NCBI GenBank assembly: GCA_965287045.1
Contig: OZ336899.1
Coordinates: 16,616,001 to 16,680,000, forward strand
Source: Carcharhinus amblyrhynchos
Taxonomy: Eukaryota
Direction of reading: 5' to 3'
DNA: 64,000 bases
The position numbers were made by a program. How positions within the stretch are numbered: the first letter of the stretch is position 1; each line of letters starts with the position of its first letter. Of this stretch, positions 3,001-45,000 are shown piece after piece.

Positions 3001-6000
3001 CCAAACGCAGGCAATTGAGGCTAGCTTAGAGGTTAAAAAAAAGAACGGCTTGGACAAGTTGAGCCAAAGGACCTTTTTACATGCTGTAAACCTTTACAAC
3101 TCTATGACTCTATGAGCATCTCTTCTAATGGAACAACCATCCAGTTACATAGAACAAATACTTCAGTGGCAATCCCTCATTCAACCACATCATTATCATA
3201 ATTATTTCACCCAGAGGGTTGTTGCAGTCAGGAATGAATTTCCTGTGAATGTGGTGGAGGCATGTTCAATTGCGATATTCAAAAGGGAATTGGATTTCTA
3301 TCTGCAAAGAAAGGTTACAGGGTAGGGCACTAGAGAGCCAGTGCAGATTCAGTAGGATGAATAGCCTCTTTTGTGAAAAATCCTCAGCTGCTCCCAATGT
3401 CGCAGTCTCCAATAAATATCTATGCCCCTTTGATAATTTCTGCATTATTCAAATTATTAAATATTCCTCTGACTCCTTCACTATTATCTTCCACAAAACA
3501 CTTCCATTCCAGATACCAGCACTTCTGCCTATGTAACATCAGGGATACCCTTTTCTGAAGTTCTGAAAGGTCAGAAAAATCTCAGGTCCCTGGAACATTT
3601 TACAATCTCAATTGGACAGTCTTCCCTGAGTCCATTCAATTGCACAGCAGCAGAAAAAACAGTTCCCAGGTTAATTCCTCAATCTTCTTGGAGCAAAGAA
3701 ACAGTTTTATTCCCACAGCCCCTAAAGGCTAAAGGATGATCAAATTGAAATGTACACAATTATGAGGGAATGAGATAGGATTGAGAGGAAAAACATATTT
3801 CCCAAAGCTGAGGGGTCAATAATTAGGAGGCATAGATTTAAGGTGATGGGTAAATGGATTAGGGAAGCCATGAGGAAAAGCATTTTCATCCAGAAATTAG
3901 TGGGCATCTTGAATTCATTGCCTAACTTGGTGGTTGAGGCTGAAAGACTCAAGTCACTAAAAAGAAAACTGGATCAGCATCTAAGGTACTCTAACCTGCA
4001 AGGCTGTGGACCAGGTGCTGGAAAGTGAGATTAAAATGAGTGGCTAGTTTCCCTTTTAGTCTATGCAGACTCAATGGGCTGAATGGCCTCTTCCTGCACC
4101 ATTACTTTTCTAAGTTCTATGGCTTTTCACACTGATTTCTTTAACTGGTGCCTGTAACAGTGATGCAAACTTCATTCCCAATACATACATTTGTATCTAA
4201 TGTGGTTCCATTCTTAGTGTCTTCATCATCTACCAGTTCTAACCAAACATGGCAACTGACTATAAACTCTGTTTCATCCACAGTCATTGAAGCCTCCTCA
4301 ACAGAACAAACTACAACTAAAGTCTCTCAAGATTTGTCTTCACCAAATACAACACAGTTGTCAGAAACTTGGTACTCAAATGGTACACAGAAAATGAACA
4401 TTACGTCTAATCACTCCACAATACCCAAAATCTCAACACCAGAATTAAAAATAAAACACAGTTCCACAATGGAAGTTCACTCTTCGTCTCTGACAACCAC
4501 CTACATGACTTCCACCAGCAAACATTCATCAAAAAGCAGTACGAACCCCACACAAGTGTCATTGATGACAAACACTTCCTCAGAAAACCATTCAATATCA
4601 ACAAATTTATCTTCCACGATGAACAGGTCATCAAATCCCAGTGAAACATCCACAATATTTCCAACAAAGACTGAAACTATGTCAGACATGTCGGCAACAA
4701 AGAACCAAGTCTCATCTGTGACTGATGTCTCGTCACAAAACCAATCAACTGGAACCAGTGTATTATCCACTGCCAAAAGCTTGTCACAAGCAAAACCCAC
4801 ACCAAATTATTCATCATTAGCGACTCCAACTTCATTAGAAACCAATCGCACTGGAATGGCAGGAACAGTGTCTTCATCAGAGACACAACCAACAACAATA
4901 CAACTTTCTTCAATAAGGAGGTCCTCAATAGAAACCAGTTCAAAACCACTGAGTTCATCTGCATCTGTATCAGAAAACAGTCAATTAACTGCAAAAGTGT
5001 CATCTGTAACTGAGTCTTCATCACAATACCATTCAACAATGACACAGGGAGAATCAATGACTGAATCTTCAGCAGAAACAAAGACAGTAAACAGTCCAGG
5101 ATCACTGATAACTGAATCGTCATCAGGAACATATCCAACAATGACACAGTTAACATCCAAAACTGGATCTTCAGTACAAACCACTACAACAACACCATTA
5201 GTGTCATCTATCACTGAGACTACAACAGAAACCCATTCAACAGCAACAAAATTATCTGCGAAAACCGAGGCCTCATCGCAAATGTATCCCACACCAACAC
5301 AAAAGTCAGCAGCGACATTGTCTTCATTAGAGACTCATCCAACAACAATAGTAGCATCATCAGTAGCAGAATCCTCATCAGAAACCTACTCAAGATCACA
5401 TGGATCGTCCTTATCAGCTTCGACACTGGAATTCAGTCCCACATCAACACCAGTGTCACCCATAACTGAGTCATCTGCACAATCCTATCCAACAATGGCA
5501 CAATCATCAATAAAAACCGAGTTTGCGACAGAAACCAGTCCTGCAACATTACAACTGTCATCTGTTGCTGAATCATCATCCAAAAACCACCCAACCGTCA
5601 CAGAAGTATCATTGGTCACGGAACATTCATCTTCAACACGCACAGAAATGACACAGACATCATCAGTAACTGGATACTTAGAAGAAAGCACTGCAACAGC
5701 AGCACGAGTGACGTCGATAACTGCGAAATCATCAGAATCCCGTCCATCAACAACATACACATCATTAGAAACTCAACCTTCATCAGAAAACCATCCAACA
5801 ATAACACACCTGTCTTCAATCACTCAGACCGCATCAGAAACTAAAGCAGCAACTCAAGCATCCTCAATATCTGTGCATTCGTCAGAAATGTATCCTGCAC
5901 CACGTCATGTTTCAGCAGTAACACTGTCTTCATCCGAGTCCCAGCCAACAACATTGCCACTTTCTTCAATAGCAGTGTCGTCAGCAGAAACCCATTTAAC

Positions 6001-42000: not shown

Positions 42001-45000
42001 TGCAACAGCAGCCCAAGAGACATCTATCACTCAGAAATCATCAGAATCCCATCCAGCAACAACATACACATCATTAGAAACTCAACCTTCATCAGAAAAC
42101 CATCCAACAATGACACACCTGTCTTCAATCACTGAGACCGCATCAGAAATTAAAACAGCAACTCAAATATCATCAATAACTTTGCCTTCATCAGAAATGT
42201 ATCCTAAACCAAGTCAGTCCCAGCCAACAACATTGCCACTTTCTTCAATAGCAGCAGAAACCCATTTAACACCACAAGGCTCATCAATAACTATGTCTAC
42301 TTCAGAATCCACACCAATAACATCAAAAGTGTCATCTGGAACTGTACCTTCGTCACAACCCCAATCAACAACACAAGGAGTATCAATGACTGAATCTTCT
42401 GCGGAAACCGAGACAGGAAACAATCCAGTATCACAGATAACTGAATATTCATCAGCGGCACATCCAAGAATGACACAGTTAACATCCACAACTGGATCTT
42501 CAGTACAAACTACTTCAACAACACCATTAGTGTCATCTGTCACTGAGAATTCAACAGAAACCCATTCAACAACATCAAAAATATCAGTGAGAACTGAGGC
42601 CTCATCGCAAATGTATCCCACACCAACACAAGTGTCAGCAGCAACACTGTCTTCATCAGCGACTCACCCTACAACAATAGAAGCGTCATCAGGAGCAGAA
42701 TCCTCATCGGAAACCCATTCAAAATCACATGGATCATCAATATCTGCTTCGACATTGGAAATCAGTCATACATCAATACCAGTGTCATCCATAACTGAGT
42801 CATCTTCACAATCCCATCCAACAATGGCACAATCATCATCAAAAATCGAGTCAGCTACAAGAACCAGTCCTGCAACATCACAGCTGTCATCCGTAGCTGA
42901 ATCATCATCCGAAAACCACCCAACCATCACAGAAGTATCATTGGTAACTGAGCCTTCATCATCAACACATTCAGAAATGTCACAGGTATCATCCATGACC
43001 GTATTCTCAGAGGAAAGCACTGCATCATCAGCACAAGTGACGTCTATAATTGAGAATTCGTCAAAATCCCATCCATCAACAGTATACTCATCATTAGAAA
43101 CTGAGCCTTCATCAGAAACCAGTCCAACAATGACACATATGTCATCAATCACCGAGACCGCATCAGAAACTAAAGCAGCGACACAAGTATCCTCAATAAG
43201 TGTGCCTTCATCAGAAATGTATCCTACACCAAGTCATGTTTCAGGAATAACACTGTCTTCATCAGTGACTCACCCAACAACAATCCAATCAATCACTGCA
43301 TCCTCATTAGAAACTCCTATAACAACAAGGCAAGTGCCTTCGGTAACTGAGTCCTCATCAGAATTGCATACAACTTCAATTCAGTTGTCTTCAGTGATGA
43401 CAGAGACTTTACATCAAACTGATCTTGCACCAACAAATAGTTCAGCTGGCATGGAGAGTTCATCTGAGACAAAGACCATGCCTTCACATGTCTCGTCAGT
43501 GACTGAGGCTTCATCACAAGTGCATCCAACAGTAACAATTCAATCATTCATCACTGAGAATTCATCACACACCATTCCATCTTCTGCACATGTATCATTA
43601 ATAACTGAAGCTTCCACAGCAGCCAATCTGATGACAACACCAGTGGCATCCAACAGTGATTTTCCATCACAGACTCTGCAAACACATACACAAATGTCCT
43701 CAGTATCTCAAACTTCATCTGCAACTCACAAAATTCCAGTACAGGAGAGTTCATCACATACCACAGCAATATCCATCCAACCCACAGTAACCTCATCAGA
43801 TGTCTATGTTAAATCTACACAAATGTCATCCACTACATCAACTAAAACTTCATCCTCTGCTTCATCATCAAGGTCATTTTCTTCTGATTCCACATCAAAA
43901 CGACTGCCAATTGTTACTGAGCAATTTTCTCCCTCTGCTTTTCATTCTACTGCAGCTTCAGAGTCCACATTCTCATCTCGGCATCCTTCCATTGTAGCGA
44001 GCACAACCTCATCCTCTGTCACTTCTAATATGGCTACTTCTCAAGCTAAAGAATCAACTTTCCCCTTTTATTCATCTACTAGCAGCAAAAAACCTTCTTC
44101 TGTGCCGATTCCAGTTTTCCCAACTCAGAGAACCAGCTCTTCTCAAACACATTTGATGACTAGCCCAAAGAAAAGCACTTCCTTAGTTCAGTCACCGTCA
44201 TATAAAACAGGAACACATAGTGTCTCTATTTCTCAAAGATCCACCAGTTCCATGCCAAGGAAAGAAAGCACTCCTGATATAAGCACTCCTCAACCTCAGC
44301 CTGATATAACTTCTACCAAATCCCTTATTTCATCTTCCACGCTCAAGAAGGAAAGTCCAACAACTTTGTCTCCACCTGTTAAAACTACTTCAACAAAAAT
44401 TCATCCTGTCAGTTCTGCCAACTCTACATTGCCAATTACAACTCATCCAATGGCCACAAACTCTACCTTGGTGACAACAATGGACTACTGTAGCAAATGC
44501 AGATGCCTAAATGGAGGAACATGTAATTCAAGTGCTACAACGGAAGATCTCTGTGTGTGCAATTGTCTGCCATTTACTTTTGGAGAATATTGTCAAAATG
44601 GGAAAAATAACACCGAAGCTTTGCCAAGTATGTTACTTCTGGTGCCAGTTGTGAGGTTTGACTGTTTTGGTTCTGTTGGTTTTTATATTCTGACAGTGTA
44701 ACCTTTTATAAAAATATAACACTTAACAGGCAGTTAAGCTGATAGCTGAGTTGCTGACTGTACTTATAACTTTGGGGCAGTATAACTGTCCCAAAGCTTC
44801 TACAGATGGGGAGGGTCAAAGCCAGCCAATTGTCTTGCTTTTAATTGCTGTCTAATGATCTATGCTTAAATCTAAATATGTGAATGTCAGAAATACTGAA
44901 GATTGAATTTGTGATATTGTTCATTGTTAAGATTCCTTATTTGGGTTTACAAATGAAGAACAGGTCTTTCAGTAAGCAATGTGCCCATCCCCAAGATTAA

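What the first reader, a model, noticed from the sequence alone, without database searches (positions are those of the whole stretch)
4500..43800. Satellite-like multi-level higher-order repeat inside coding sequence
Monomer A (352 aa) parses into 21 modules (17x17 aa, 3x16, 1x15) of consensus ~SSVTESSSETHPTxTQV. Monomer B (340 aa) is the same unit with in-frame indels (-10,-3,+2,-1 aa). AB forms the 2076-bp dimer, and dimers form larger blocks. The 17-aa beat persists into the non-homogenised flanks. This 51 bp -> 1 kb -> 2 kb -> 8 kb hierarchy resembles alpha-satellite HORs, and the units are far longer than typical mucin VNTR units.
Basis: seen in the sequence. Interest (0 to 1): 0.75.

Follow-up and report, generated by a model that had tools for sequence, protein, structure and literature searches.

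The report
Shark membrane mucin's nested repeat exon
This is the 40-kb sugar-carrying exon of a shark cell-surface mucin gene, built from repeats nested inside repeats; it looks striking but is an ordinary way for mucin genes to grow.

Summary
Window 4161-44628 (+) is one 40,468-bp exon, open for 13,488 codons (46% Ser+Thr). It carries four nested repeat tiers.

- **51 bp (17 aa) modules:** about 50% identical.
- **Monomers of about 1.03 kb:** 21 modules each, in two types 88% identical, separated by a branch with 100/100 support.
- **2,076-bp dimers:** 98.8-99.3% identical.
- **8,304-bp four-dimer block:** 99.88% identical, but only 2.75 copies, all in the 5' half.

A recombinant monomer makes a 3,096-bp unit (2 copies) at the 3' end.

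It is not a satellite. It is the mucin (PTS) domain of a membrane mucin with EGF-SEA-EGF-transmembrane-tail exons downstream. The best relatives are two shark proteins, at 63-68% identity. The nearest named clusters are mucin-12, Mucin-3B and mucin-3A.

The tiers fit successive in-frame unequal exchanges and gene conversion under near-neutral sequence evolution (dN/dS 0.86), with selection keeping the frame and composition.

Precedents exist: human MUC3B (39,267-bp exon, 17-aa unit), MUC5B super-repeats and hornerin's four-tier coding repeat. I rate it a new member of a known kind, of modest interest. Copy number could not be checked against reads.

The parts
4161..44628 (+). Giant exon encoding the PTS (mucin) domain and the first EGF-like domain: 40,468 bp, 13,488 codons, no stop
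   Evidence: The frame is open from 4145 to 44701. The coding frame has 0 stops; the other five frames have 217-2462. The acceptor AG ends at 4160 and a GTATGT donor starts at 44629 (read by eye). Ser is 26%, Thr 20%, Pro 6.7%.
4161..4882 (+). 5' non-homogenised PTS with a weak 17-aa beat
   Evidence: Lag 51 gives 0.392 against codon shuffles 0.306 +/- 0.016, z 5.2 (on 4145-4882). The beat begins at about 4200.
4883..5938 (+). Monomer m1, a diverged edge copy (82-87% identical to the others; mosaic of X and Y states)
   Evidence: Long branch of 0.18 in the tree.
5939..37075 (+). Homogenised array of 15 X-Y dimers (2,076 bp each; one is 2,073 bp after a 3-bp deletion near 24587-24600)
   Evidence: Blastn of one dimer gives in-register copies at 98.9-100%. 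There are 60 variable columns in 2,076. Adjacent dimers differ at 14-17 positions.
5939..14242 (+). 8,304-bp superblock copy 1 (dimer haplotypes a-b-c-d)
   Evidence: 10 mismatches in 8,304 against copy 2. Haplotype table.
14243..22546 (+). 8,304-bp superblock copy 2 (a-b-c-d)
22547..28771 (+). Superblock copy 3, lacking the c dimer (a-b-d)
   Evidence: a2 against a3: 2 mismatches in 2,040. b2 against b3: 6 in 2,076. d2 against d3: 1 in 2,076. c2 against d3: 19 in 2,076. Haplotypes.
28772..37075 (+). Four further dimers (e-f-g-h) that are mosaics of the other haplotypes and show no 8.3-kb period
37076..43243 (+). Two copies of a 3,096-bp X-H-Y unit (m32-m34 and m35-m37). m37 is the diverged 3' edge copy.
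   Evidence: Lag 3096 gives 98.4% here, against 63% at lag 2076. X32+H33 against X35+H36: 0 mismatches in 2,046. Y34 against m37: 48 in 1,026.
38102..39121 (+). Hybrid monomer H (m33): Y-type head, X-type tail, one switch near alignment column 960
   Evidence: Diagnostic-site string.
41198..42217 (+). Hybrid monomer H (m36), identical to m33
43244..44488 (+). 3' non-homogenised PTS; the 17-aa beat fades by about 43800
   Evidence: Collinear with S. torazame P0001 (61% identity over 598 aligned positions, 42830-44623).
44489..44628 (+). First EGF-like (Cys-rich) domain at the end of the giant exon
   Evidence: Cys pattern seen. 82.5% identical to P0001 residues 482-561. Weak EGF matches of the same stretch of P0002 in the PDB (E 0.15-0.95).
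45627..45748 (+). SEA domain exon 1
   Evidence: tblastn with P0001 564-605, 64%. AG/GT splice sites read by eye.
47072..47136 (+). SEA domain exon 2
   Evidence: tblastn. Splice sites.
50782..50981 (+). SEA domain exon 3, with the G-S-I-I cleavage-type motif
   Evidence: tblastn with P0001 625-691, 76%. G265 and S266 are nearly invariant in the family alignment.
51435..51597 (+). Second EGF-like domain, first part
   Evidence: tblastn 52%. Invariant Cys columns.
55536..55700 (+). Second EGF-like domain end, plus the transmembrane helix and stop-transfer basic residues
   Evidence: tblastn 78.6%. A hydrophobic run of about 25 residues followed by RRKR.
57252..57322 (+). Cytoplasmic tail exon 1
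   Evidence: tblastn 70.8%. Splice sites.
59197..59327 (+). Cytoplasmic tail exon 2
   Evidence: tblastn 87.5%.
59446..59496 (+). Last coding exon with the stop codon; the tail ends ...P-N-G-Q
   Evidence: tblastn. ORF 59332-59496. Acceptor read by eye.

Best explanation
**What it is.** The region is the single giant exon that encodes the O-glycosylated mucin (PTS) domain of a type I membrane mucin of the MUC3/MUC12/MUC17 kind, in a cartilaginous fish (most likely a shark; species undetermined; not human). Downstream exons encode EGF - SEA - EGF - transmembrane helix - short cytoplasmic tail.

**What it does (inferred).** The PTS domain is about 13,400 residues with 46% Ser+Thr. It is expected to be densely O-glycosylated and stiffened into a bottle-brush filament anchored at the apical membrane. 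By proportion to MUC17 (4,073 residues, about 1 um) it would reach roughly 3 um.

**How the hierarchy arose.** It is the record of successive in-frame amplifications by unequal exchange, with gene conversion.

1. An old 17-codon unit was amplified, and its copies diverged to about 50% identity.
2. A 21-module block of about 1 kb became the unit of exchange and split into two types, X and Y (dS 0.14).
3. The X-Y dimer was amplified and homogenised (about 1% divergence).
4. A four-dimer block was duplicated very recently (0.12%).
5. One out-of-register Y/X crossover made a hybrid monomer and a 3.1-kb unit, which was itself duplicated (0 differences in 2,046 bp).

**What selection acts on.** It acts on the reading frame, the composition and probably the length, and hardly at all on the residue sequence.

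**Shown here:** the tiers, the clades, the breakpoint, the mosaicism, the open frame and the domain exons.

**Inferred:** glycosylation, filament length, expression, and the exchange mechanism itself.
For: **Coding.**
- The coding frame has 0 stops in 13,488 codons, while the other five frames have 217-2462. From base composition, log10 P is about -298.
- All X/Y indels are multiples of 3 (30, 9, 6, 3 nt), and so is the only within-type indel (3 nt).
- 64% of Ser codons are TCA, one step from a stop. None of the 61 within-type variants makes a stop.

**Gene identity.**
- The last 442 codons of the exon hit a partial S. torazame protein at 68% identity and 98% coverage, E 2e-140.
- That protein carries Pfam SEA at 33.2 bits, above the cut-off of 26.4.
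- Its C-terminal half maps onto 9 collinear pieces of the window, which have AG/GT borders and compatible phases.
- A second shark protein (C. punctatum) gives the same map.
- The G-S of the SEA cleavage motif and 7 Cys/Gly columns are invariant or nearly so in 31 relatives.
- The nearest Atlas clusters are mucin-12 (0.97), Mucin-3B (0.95) and mucin-3A (0.92).

**Hierarchy and process.**
- Identity rises tier by tier: about 0.50, then 0.88, then 0.99, then 0.9988.
- The X clade has 100/100 support.
- The hybrid monomer has one Y-to-X switch.
- The dimer haplotype order is a-b-c-d, a-b-c-d, a-b-d, e-f-g-h. 116 of 741 pairs of informative sites fail the four-gamete test, which shows mosaic exchange.
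- The edge monomers m1 and m37 are the most diverged.

**Near-neutral sequence evolution.** dN/dS between X and Y is 0.86. Within types there are 41 nonsynonymous and 20 synonymous variants.

**Concerted evolution.** The catshark's last monomer (134 residues) is collinear with positions about 205-337 of every monomer type here. Its identity to them is 51-57%, and it is no closer to the positional counterpart m37 (51%) than to Y (56.5%). The window's own monomers are 82-100% alike at nucleotide level. The catshark PTS also beats at 17 residues (lag 17 = 0.24; 0 of 300 shuffles as high).
Against: - The window's own SEA and EGF exons, scanned one by one, match no Pfam family above threshold. The SEA assignment rests on the catshark orthologue.
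- The bamboo-shark protein is just under the SEA cut-off (25.8 against 26.4 bits). Only 7 of 31 relatives match SEA at E <= 0.001.
- The tail ends P-N-G-Q, so it lacks the class I PDZ motif that the human chromosome 7 mucins share.
- I found no first exon with a signal peptide in 1-4160.
- No expression data were available.
- A search restricted to proteins of 5,485-17,455 residues found no relative among 453 scored candidates. No full-length annotated counterpart is therefore known to me.
- Names of the 233 more distant relatives could not be obtained. Orthology to MUC3, MUC12 or MUC17 specifically is untested.
- The 8.3-kb tier is absent from the 3' half.
- Blocks that are 99.88-100% identical over 2-8 kb are the kind of sequence assemblers can miscount, and I could not check reads.
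Confidence: 0.88

Rival explanations
1. The sequence units are real, but the copy number and the higher-order arrangement (the 8.3-kb blocks and the identical X-H pairs) are partly products of assembly, through over-expansion, collapse or mis-ordering of near-identical repeats.
For: Superblock copies differ at only 10 of 8,304 positions, and the X32+H33 and X35+H36 pairs at 0 of 2,046. That is at or beyond what many read sets resolve. The catshark short-read model breaks off inside the array, which shows how hard the locus is to assemble.
Against: The window has no N. The frame stays open through every junction. Each dimer haplotype is defined by several linked variants that recur in a regular order. 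The irregularities are biologically sensible and in frame: a missing c dimer, a 3-bp deletion, and a hybrid with a single breakpoint.
Confidence: 0.15
2. The X/Y alternation and larger blocks are kept by selection because the two monomer types do different jobs (for example distinct glycosylation patterns or ligand sites). On this reading the higher-order unit is functional, not a by-product of exchange.
For: The strict X-Y alternation holds through 15 dimers. The roughly 21-module monomer order is conserved between two shark lineages.
Against: dN/dS between X and Y is 0.86, and within-type variants are 41 nonsynonymous to 20 synonymous. This shows no sign of residue-level constraint. Alternation follows automatically once the dimer is the unit of exchange. 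The tail of the array breaks the alternation (X-H-Y) without breaking the frame.
Confidence: 0.08
3. The gene belongs to another SEA-type mucin lineage (MUC13-like, MUC1-like, or a fish-specific lineage) and is not the counterpart of the mammalian MUC3/12/17 cluster.
For: There is no class I PDZ motif. Synteny could not be tested: no neighbouring gene was recognised in the window. The Atlas scores are leads without alignment. Names of the HMMER relatives were unavailable.
Against: The architecture is a giant single PTS exon followed by EGF-SEA-EGF-TM, as described for the chromosome 7 cluster (passages). The three best Atlas clusters with names are mucin-12, Mucin-3B and mucin-3A. The repeat period of 17 residues equals that of human MUC3A/B. 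As I recall them (not checked here), MUC1 lacks EGF domains and MUC13 has a small PTS.
Confidence: 0.2
4. It is a decaying or unexpressed relic, a non-functional exon that merely has not yet acquired stops because the array is young.
For: Most of the array is under 1% diverged, so there has been little time for stops to arise. No first exon was found and there are no expression data.
Against: The older parts are also open and in frame: m1, m37 and both unique flanks, with X/Y at dS 0.14. All nine downstream exons are intact with canonical splice sites, and they are conserved at 52-87% with a catshark protein.
Confidence: 0.04

Closest known systems
Human MUC3A / MUC3B (chromosome 7q22 membrane mucins)
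   Same: Both have a single giant PTS exon: MUC3B has 39,267 bp and 13,089 aa, against 40,468 bp and about 13,489 codons here. Both have a 17-residue repeat unit. MUC3A/B are described with a SEA domain, transmembrane domain and tail, and with 12 exons, against at least 10 seen here (PMC9578598, passages; window). The EGF-SEA-EGF order is described for MUC17 and the cluster in PMC13643018 (passages).
   Different: In the human genes the 17-aa unit is itself the homogenised 'perfect' repeat (166 and 549 copies). Here the 17-aa modules are old and only about 50% identical, and the homogenised unit is a 692-aa dimer. The shark tail lacks the class I PDZ motif. Read by eye, with no computed control, the printed human consensus and the shark consensus share 6 of 17 positions at the best rotation. 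Homology of the unit is therefore open.
Human MUC12 and MUC17
   Same: Same architecture and gene cluster. MUC12 alleles encode 4,677-23,080 aa, so the size here is within the known range (PMC13345508, passages). The MUC17 PTS of 4,073 aa extends about 1 um (PMC13643018, passage). The nearest Atlas cluster is named mucin-12.
   Different: The repeat units differ: MUC17 has 60 repeats in 4,073 aa. Specific orthology was not tested.
MUC5B central exon 'super-repeat'
   Same: A mucin exon in which short irregular repeats are grouped into a larger repeated unit: four super-repeats of 528 aa in a 10.7-kb exon (PMC6780288, passage citing Desseyn 1997).
   Different: MUC5B is a secreted gel-forming mucin, and its super-repeat includes Cys-rich subdomains. 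It has four copies and little length variation. Here the super-unit is pure PTS, 692 aa long, present in about 18 copies, and has a further tier above it.
Hornerin (HRNR) nested coding repeat
   Same: A four-tier in-frame hierarchy within one exon, 39 bp x9 to 351 bp, x2 to 702 bp, x2 to 1,404 bp, x5-6. It has been described explicitly as a higher-order repeat (PMC6280949, abstract and passages).
   Different: It is an unrelated protein family (S100-fused, Gly/Ser-rich), with a much smaller array of about 8 kb and higher divergence between its longest units.
Alpha-satellite higher-order repeats
   Same: Diverged sub-units inside near-identical super-units; diverged copies at the array edges; hybrid units from out-of-register exchange; within-species homogenisation. 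The satellite side of this comparison is recalled general knowledge.
   Different: This array is coding, in frame and transcribed as part of a gene. Its monomer is about 1 kb, not about 171 bp. Its sub-units differ by 12%, not the 20-40% I recall for alpha satellite. It is 37 kb long, not megabases, and has no centromere context.

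Membership tests
Mucin (PTS-domain glycoprotein) | Long domain rich in Pro, Thr and Ser, built of tandem repeats and encoded in one large exon | tested here: met
   Ser 26%, Thr 20%, Pro 6.7% over 13,488 codons in one exon. Repeats confirmed.
Mucin (PTS-domain glycoprotein) | Dense O-glycosylation of the PTS domain | not testable with these tools
   Needs glycoproteomics. Inferred only from the 46% Ser+Thr content.
MUC3/MUC12/MUC17-type membrane mucins | Juxtamembrane SEA domain flanked by two EGF-like domains, then one transmembrane helix and a short tail | tested here: met
   The catshark orthologue P0001 has Pfam SEA at 33.2 bits (cut-off 26.4). Its EGF1, SEA, EGF2, TM and tail map to nine window pieces at 52-87% identity. 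Caveat: the window's exons scanned singly give no Pfam hit.
MUC3/MUC12/MUC17-type membrane mucins | SEA autoproteolysis motif (Gly-Ser followed by hydrophobic residues) | tested here: met
   The window has A-G-S-I-I-A at 50782 onward. G265 and S266 are at least 90% conserved in 31 relatives. Cleavage itself was not tested.
MUC3/MUC12/MUC17-type membrane mucins | Class I PDZ-binding motif at the C-terminus (PMC13643018) | tested here: not met
   The window tail ends P-N-G-Q. The two shark proteins end N-E-Q and G-E-H.
MUC3/MUC12/MUC17-type membrane mucins | Position in a mucin cluster between ACHE and TRIM56 | not testable with these tools
   No other gene was recognised in the window: 8 flank ORFs gave 0 Pfam hits. 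No eukaryotic genome collection was open.
MUC3/MUC12/MUC17-type membrane mucins | Groups with named MUC3/12/17 references in a tree of the C-terminal domains | not tested
The only evidence is Atlas feature similarity to clusters named mucin-12, Mucin-3B and mucin-3A.
MUC3A/B specifically | 17-residue tandem repeat unit | tested here: inconclusive
   The period is the same, 17 aa. Homology of the unit's sequence was not tested statistically. Read by eye, 6 of 17 positions agree.
Satellite-type higher-order repeat | Super-units much more alike than the sub-units within them | tested here: met
   X against Y is 88%. Dimers are 98.8-99.3% alike. Four-dimer blocks are 99.88% alike.
Satellite-type higher-order repeat | Non-coding, very long, homogeneous array (centromeric or heterochromatic) | tested here: not met
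   It is an open reading frame inside a gene with flanking coding exons, and the array is 37.3 kb.

The most novel reading that the evidence does not exclude
The 17-residue module, and perhaps the roughly 21-module kilobase monomer, is an ancestral feature of MUC3-type membrane mucins, kept from sharks to humans for over 400 million years. PTS sequences are usually taken to be unconserved. On this reading the period is constrained, for example by the spacing preferences of the glycosylation machinery or by backbone mechanics. The shark array would then be a natural case of a protein-coding higher-order repeat evolving by the same concerted dynamics as centromeric satellites.
Probability: 0.15. 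Interest if true: 0.55.

Novelty: new member of a known kind. Interest (0 to 1): 0.3.

Why it matters
It gives a fully resolved, non-mammalian example of how a membrane mucin reaches more than 13,000 residues: by changing the unit of unequal exchange four times, from 51 bp to about 1 kb, 2.1 kb and 8.3 kb, always in frame.

It shows that giant single-exon PTS domains of the MUC3/12/17 type, with a 17-residue period, exist in cartilaginous fish. This pushes the architecture back towards the base of jawed vertebrates.

It offers a compact system of 37 kb, with clear diagnostic sites, for studying concerted evolution under a reading-frame constraint.

It is also a practical warning. The short-read catshark model stops inside the last monomer, so such genes are badly under-annotated.

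Tried and rejected
- **Tandem Repeats Finder.** On the whole window it missed the array, because its period limit is 500. On one dimer it found only 2.4 copies of the 51-bp unit, because the modules are too diverged. I used autocorrelation and a wrap-around alignment instead.
- **Pfam on the window's downstream exons one by one.** No SEA or EGF hit.
- **PDB sequence searches.** These gave only weak EGF and ADGRF1-SEA matches, with best E-values of 0.15 for the single protein and 1.6e-4 for the profile.
- **Search for full-length giant relatives (5,485-17,455 aa).** None among 453 scored candidates.
- **Rfam and tRNA scans.** Nothing found.
- **Neighbouring genes for synteny.** Nothing recognisable.
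- **A tier between 51 bp and 1 kb.** There is only a weak bump at lag 354 (0.479).
- **17-residue period in four unnamed, more distant relatives.** Not seen (0 of 4). Their short N-terminal parts are junction sequence, so this says little.
- **Non-coding satellite.** Considered and rejected because of the open frame and the flanking exons.
- **Gel-forming mucin.** Considered and rejected because the gene has SEA, EGF and TM exons and I saw no VWD-type exons.
- **Human origin.** Considered and rejected because the best relatives are shark proteins and no tool flagged the letters.

Full report
**The observation**

The window has no N. It holds one extraordinary open frame on the + strand, 4145-44701, 13,518 codons read from stop to stop.

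| lag (bp) | identity |
|---|---|
| 51 | 0.506 |
| 102 | 0.487 |
| 1020 | 0.596 |
| 1056 | 0.553 |
| 2076 | 0.893 |
| 3096 | 0.610 |

The 51-bp beat is not an effect of composition or codon structure. Within a single dimer it gives 0.505, against 0.358 +/- 0.009 (maximum 0.384) in 500 codon shuffles, z 15.5. It continues more weakly into both non-homogenised flanks (z 5.2 and 4.3). It is confined to about 4200-43800.

A wrap-around profile alignment cuts each monomer into 21 modules, mostly of 17 residues.

**The tiers**

An 11-residue anchor recurs 37 times, with spacings that alternate between 342 and 350 residues. I call the two monomer types X and Y.

In a maximum-likelihood tree of the 37 monomers, all 17 X copies sit on one side of a branch of length 0.12 with support 100/100. 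The Y copies, the two hybrids and m37 sit on the other side. The first monomer, m1, is a long branch of 0.18.

X and Y are 88% identical. Copies of one type differ at 0-19 of about 1,030-1,050 positions.

Above the dimer there is a further tier, but only in the 5' half. In 5939-24500, lag 8304 leaves 12 mismatches in 10,258 positions (99.88%) and lag 16608 leaves 2 in 1,954. Lags 2076, 4152 and 6228 give 98.8-99.0%. In 24620-38101 identity just declines with distance.

The variant table of the 15 regular dimers reads a-b-c-d, a-b-c-d, a-b-d, e-f-g-h. Block 1 and block 2 differ at 10 of 8,304 positions, while neighbouring dimers differ at 14-17 of 2,076.

At the 3' end the alternation changes to X-H-Y, X-H-Y. 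H is a monomer with a Y head and an X tail and a single switch near column 960. This makes the 3,096-bp period. The two X-H pairs are identical over 2,046 bp.

**It is coding, and it is a membrane mucin**

The coding frame has no stop in 13,488 codons. The other five frames have 217-2,462 stops. Ser+Thr make up 46% and Pro 6.7%.

The exon runs from an acceptor at 4160/4161 to a GTATGT donor at 44629 (read by eye). It ends in a Cys-rich EGF-like stretch.

Its last 442 codons match a partial protein of the cloudy catshark at 68% identity (E 2e-140). That protein has a Pfam SEA domain above the curated cut-off (33.2 against 26.4 bits). A second relative comes from the bamboo shark.

I mapped the catshark protein onto the window exon by exon. 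I built no joined model. It gives nine collinear pieces with AG/GT borders and matching phases:

| coordinates | content |
|---|---|
| 45627-45748 | SEA, first exon |
| 47072-47136 | SEA, second exon |
| 50782-50981 | SEA, third exon (with a G-S-I-I cleavage-type motif) |
| 51435-51597 | second EGF, first part |
| 55536-55700 | second EGF, end, plus the transmembrane helix |
| 57252-57322 | cytoplasmic tail |
| 59197-59327 | cytoplasmic tail |
| 59446-59496 | cytoplasmic tail, with the stop |

An exhaustive HMMER search with the bamboo-shark protein finds 233 relatives at E <= 0.001. In an alignment of the best 31, the G-S of the cleavage motif and the EGF cysteines are invariant or nearly so. 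7 of the 31 match Pfam SEA.

The language-model atlas puts the C-terminal region nearest to clusters named mucin-12 (0.97), Mucin-3B (0.95) and mucin-3A (0.92).

The window is 63-67% identical to both shark proteins over the C-terminal exons. An open CR1/L2-like reverse-transcriptase ORF lies in one intron. I take the source for a cartilaginous fish, not for human, and no tool objected to the letters.

**How it most likely works**

The function is inferred from the family. It would be a densely O-glycosylated, extended filament tethered to the apical membrane through a SEA domain that can part under force, forming a glycocalyx. Scaling from MUC17 (4,073 PTS residues, up to 1 um; PMC13643018, passage) gives roughly 3 um.

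The origin of the hierarchy is better supported.

- **Identity rises tier by tier**, from about 50% to 88%, 99%, 99.88% and 100%. This orders the amplifications in time.
- **Every indel is a multiple of three**.
- **The hybrid monomer** is what an out-of-register Y/X crossover would produce.
- **116 of 741 pairs of informative sites show all four combinations.** Dimers have therefore exchanged segments and did not merely duplicate in a tree-like way.
- **The edge copies m1 and m37 are the most diverged**. This is the pattern noted for human mucin arrays (PMC13345508, passage).

Residue sequence is almost free to drift. dN/dS between X and Y is 0.86 (dS 0.14), and within-type variants are 41 nonsynonymous to 20 synonymous with no stops, although 64% of Ser codons are one step from a stop.

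The one comparison with another species that I could make points to concerted evolution. The catshark model begins inside the last monomer. Its 134 monomer residues are collinear with positions about 205-337 of every monomer type here at 51-57% identity. They are no closer to the positional counterpart m37 than to Y. Its PTS also beats at 17 residues (0 of 300 shuffles as high).

The kilobase monomer with its module order is therefore older than the split of the two lineages. The near-identity of copies here is lineage-specific homogenisation.

**Comparison with what is known**

- **Human MUC3B** has a PTS exon of 39,267 bp (13,089 aa). MUC3A and MUC3B have 12 exons and a 17-residue perfect repeat, in 166 and 549 copies, besides 'imperfect repeats' (PMC9578598, passages).
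- **MUC12** alleles encode 4,677-23,080 residues (PMC13345508, passage).
- **MUC5B** has four 528-residue super-repeats made of smaller repeats (PMC6780288, passage).
- **Hornerin** has a published four-tier coding repeat, 39-351-702-1404 bp, described as a higher-order repeat (PMC6280949, abstract and passages).

Against this background the shark exon is a new member of a known kind. What is particular to it:

- The homogenised unit is unusually long for a pure PTS sequence (692 residues).
- It has four clean tiers.
- The 17-residue modules are the oldest layer, not the youngest as in human MUC3.

One defining feature of the human cluster, the class I PDZ motif, is absent. Synteny and named phylogeny could not be tested. 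I therefore file it as 'MUC3/12/17-type' and not as an orthologue of any one of them.

I recalled, but could not find in the library, an older report of a roughly 375-residue repeat in human MUC3 (searches found no such passage). I do not rely on it. Searches for shark membrane mucins and for mucin higher-order repeats returned nothing on this gene. One search found 7 papers and listed 5. One search found 142 and listed 12. One search found 296 and listed 10. One search found 35 and listed 10.

**Caveats**

- Copy number and block order rest on the assembly alone. Blocks 99.88-100% identical over 2-8 kb are hard to assemble.
- No first exon, no expression data and no full-length annotated relative were found.
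Paper supplements were closed.

Noticed in passing
53961-55271 (-): A 436-codon frame with no stop, carrying a reverse transcriptase domain (Pfam RVT_1, E 7e-36). It is a CR1/L2-like LINE lying in the intron between the two exons of the second EGF domain, and its open frame suggests a fairly young insertion.
   Followed up: partly
2680-3018 (+), 3774-4028 (+), 50085-50303 (+), 57911-58444 (-): Four further fragments carry the same conserved LINE C-terminal motif as the end of the reverse-transcriptase ORF. The family has peppered the introns and the 5' flank. From memory, this motif is common in shark genomes.
   Followed up: no
46628-46961, with related 46174-46284; 704-799 against 46450-46544: A 69-bp tandem repeat of 4.9 copies lies in an intron, with a partial copy nearby. 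A 96-bp inverted match (82%) links the 5' flank and this intron, probably a short dispersed element.
   Followed up: no
61321-62136: A C/T-rich low-complexity tract with periods of 19, 65 and 109 bp and GC skew -0.42. The ORFs of 350-469 codons listed there are by-products of the tract, not genes. GC rises to 0.48-0.51 at 60-64 kb, but no Pfam domain was found.
   Followed up: partly
8015-10090 (any dimer): Lag 354 (seven modules minus 3 nt) gives 0.479, above its neighbours at 0.437-0.464. Since 21 = 3 x 7, an older seven-module tier may lie between the 51-bp and 1-kb levels.
   Followed up: partly
42830-44623 against protein P0001: The catshark gene model starts inside the last monomer of the array. 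The repeat array is therefore not represented in that model, and proteins of this kind are badly truncated in such annotations.
   Followed up: yes
59446-59496: The cytoplasmic tail ends P-N-G-Q, and the two shark relatives end N-E-Q and G-E-H. None has the class I PDZ-binding motif shared by the human chromosome 7 membrane mucins.
   Followed up: partly
1-4160: No signal-peptide exon was recognised upstream of the giant exon, which starts in phase 1. The first exon probably lies beyond the window.
   Followed up: partly
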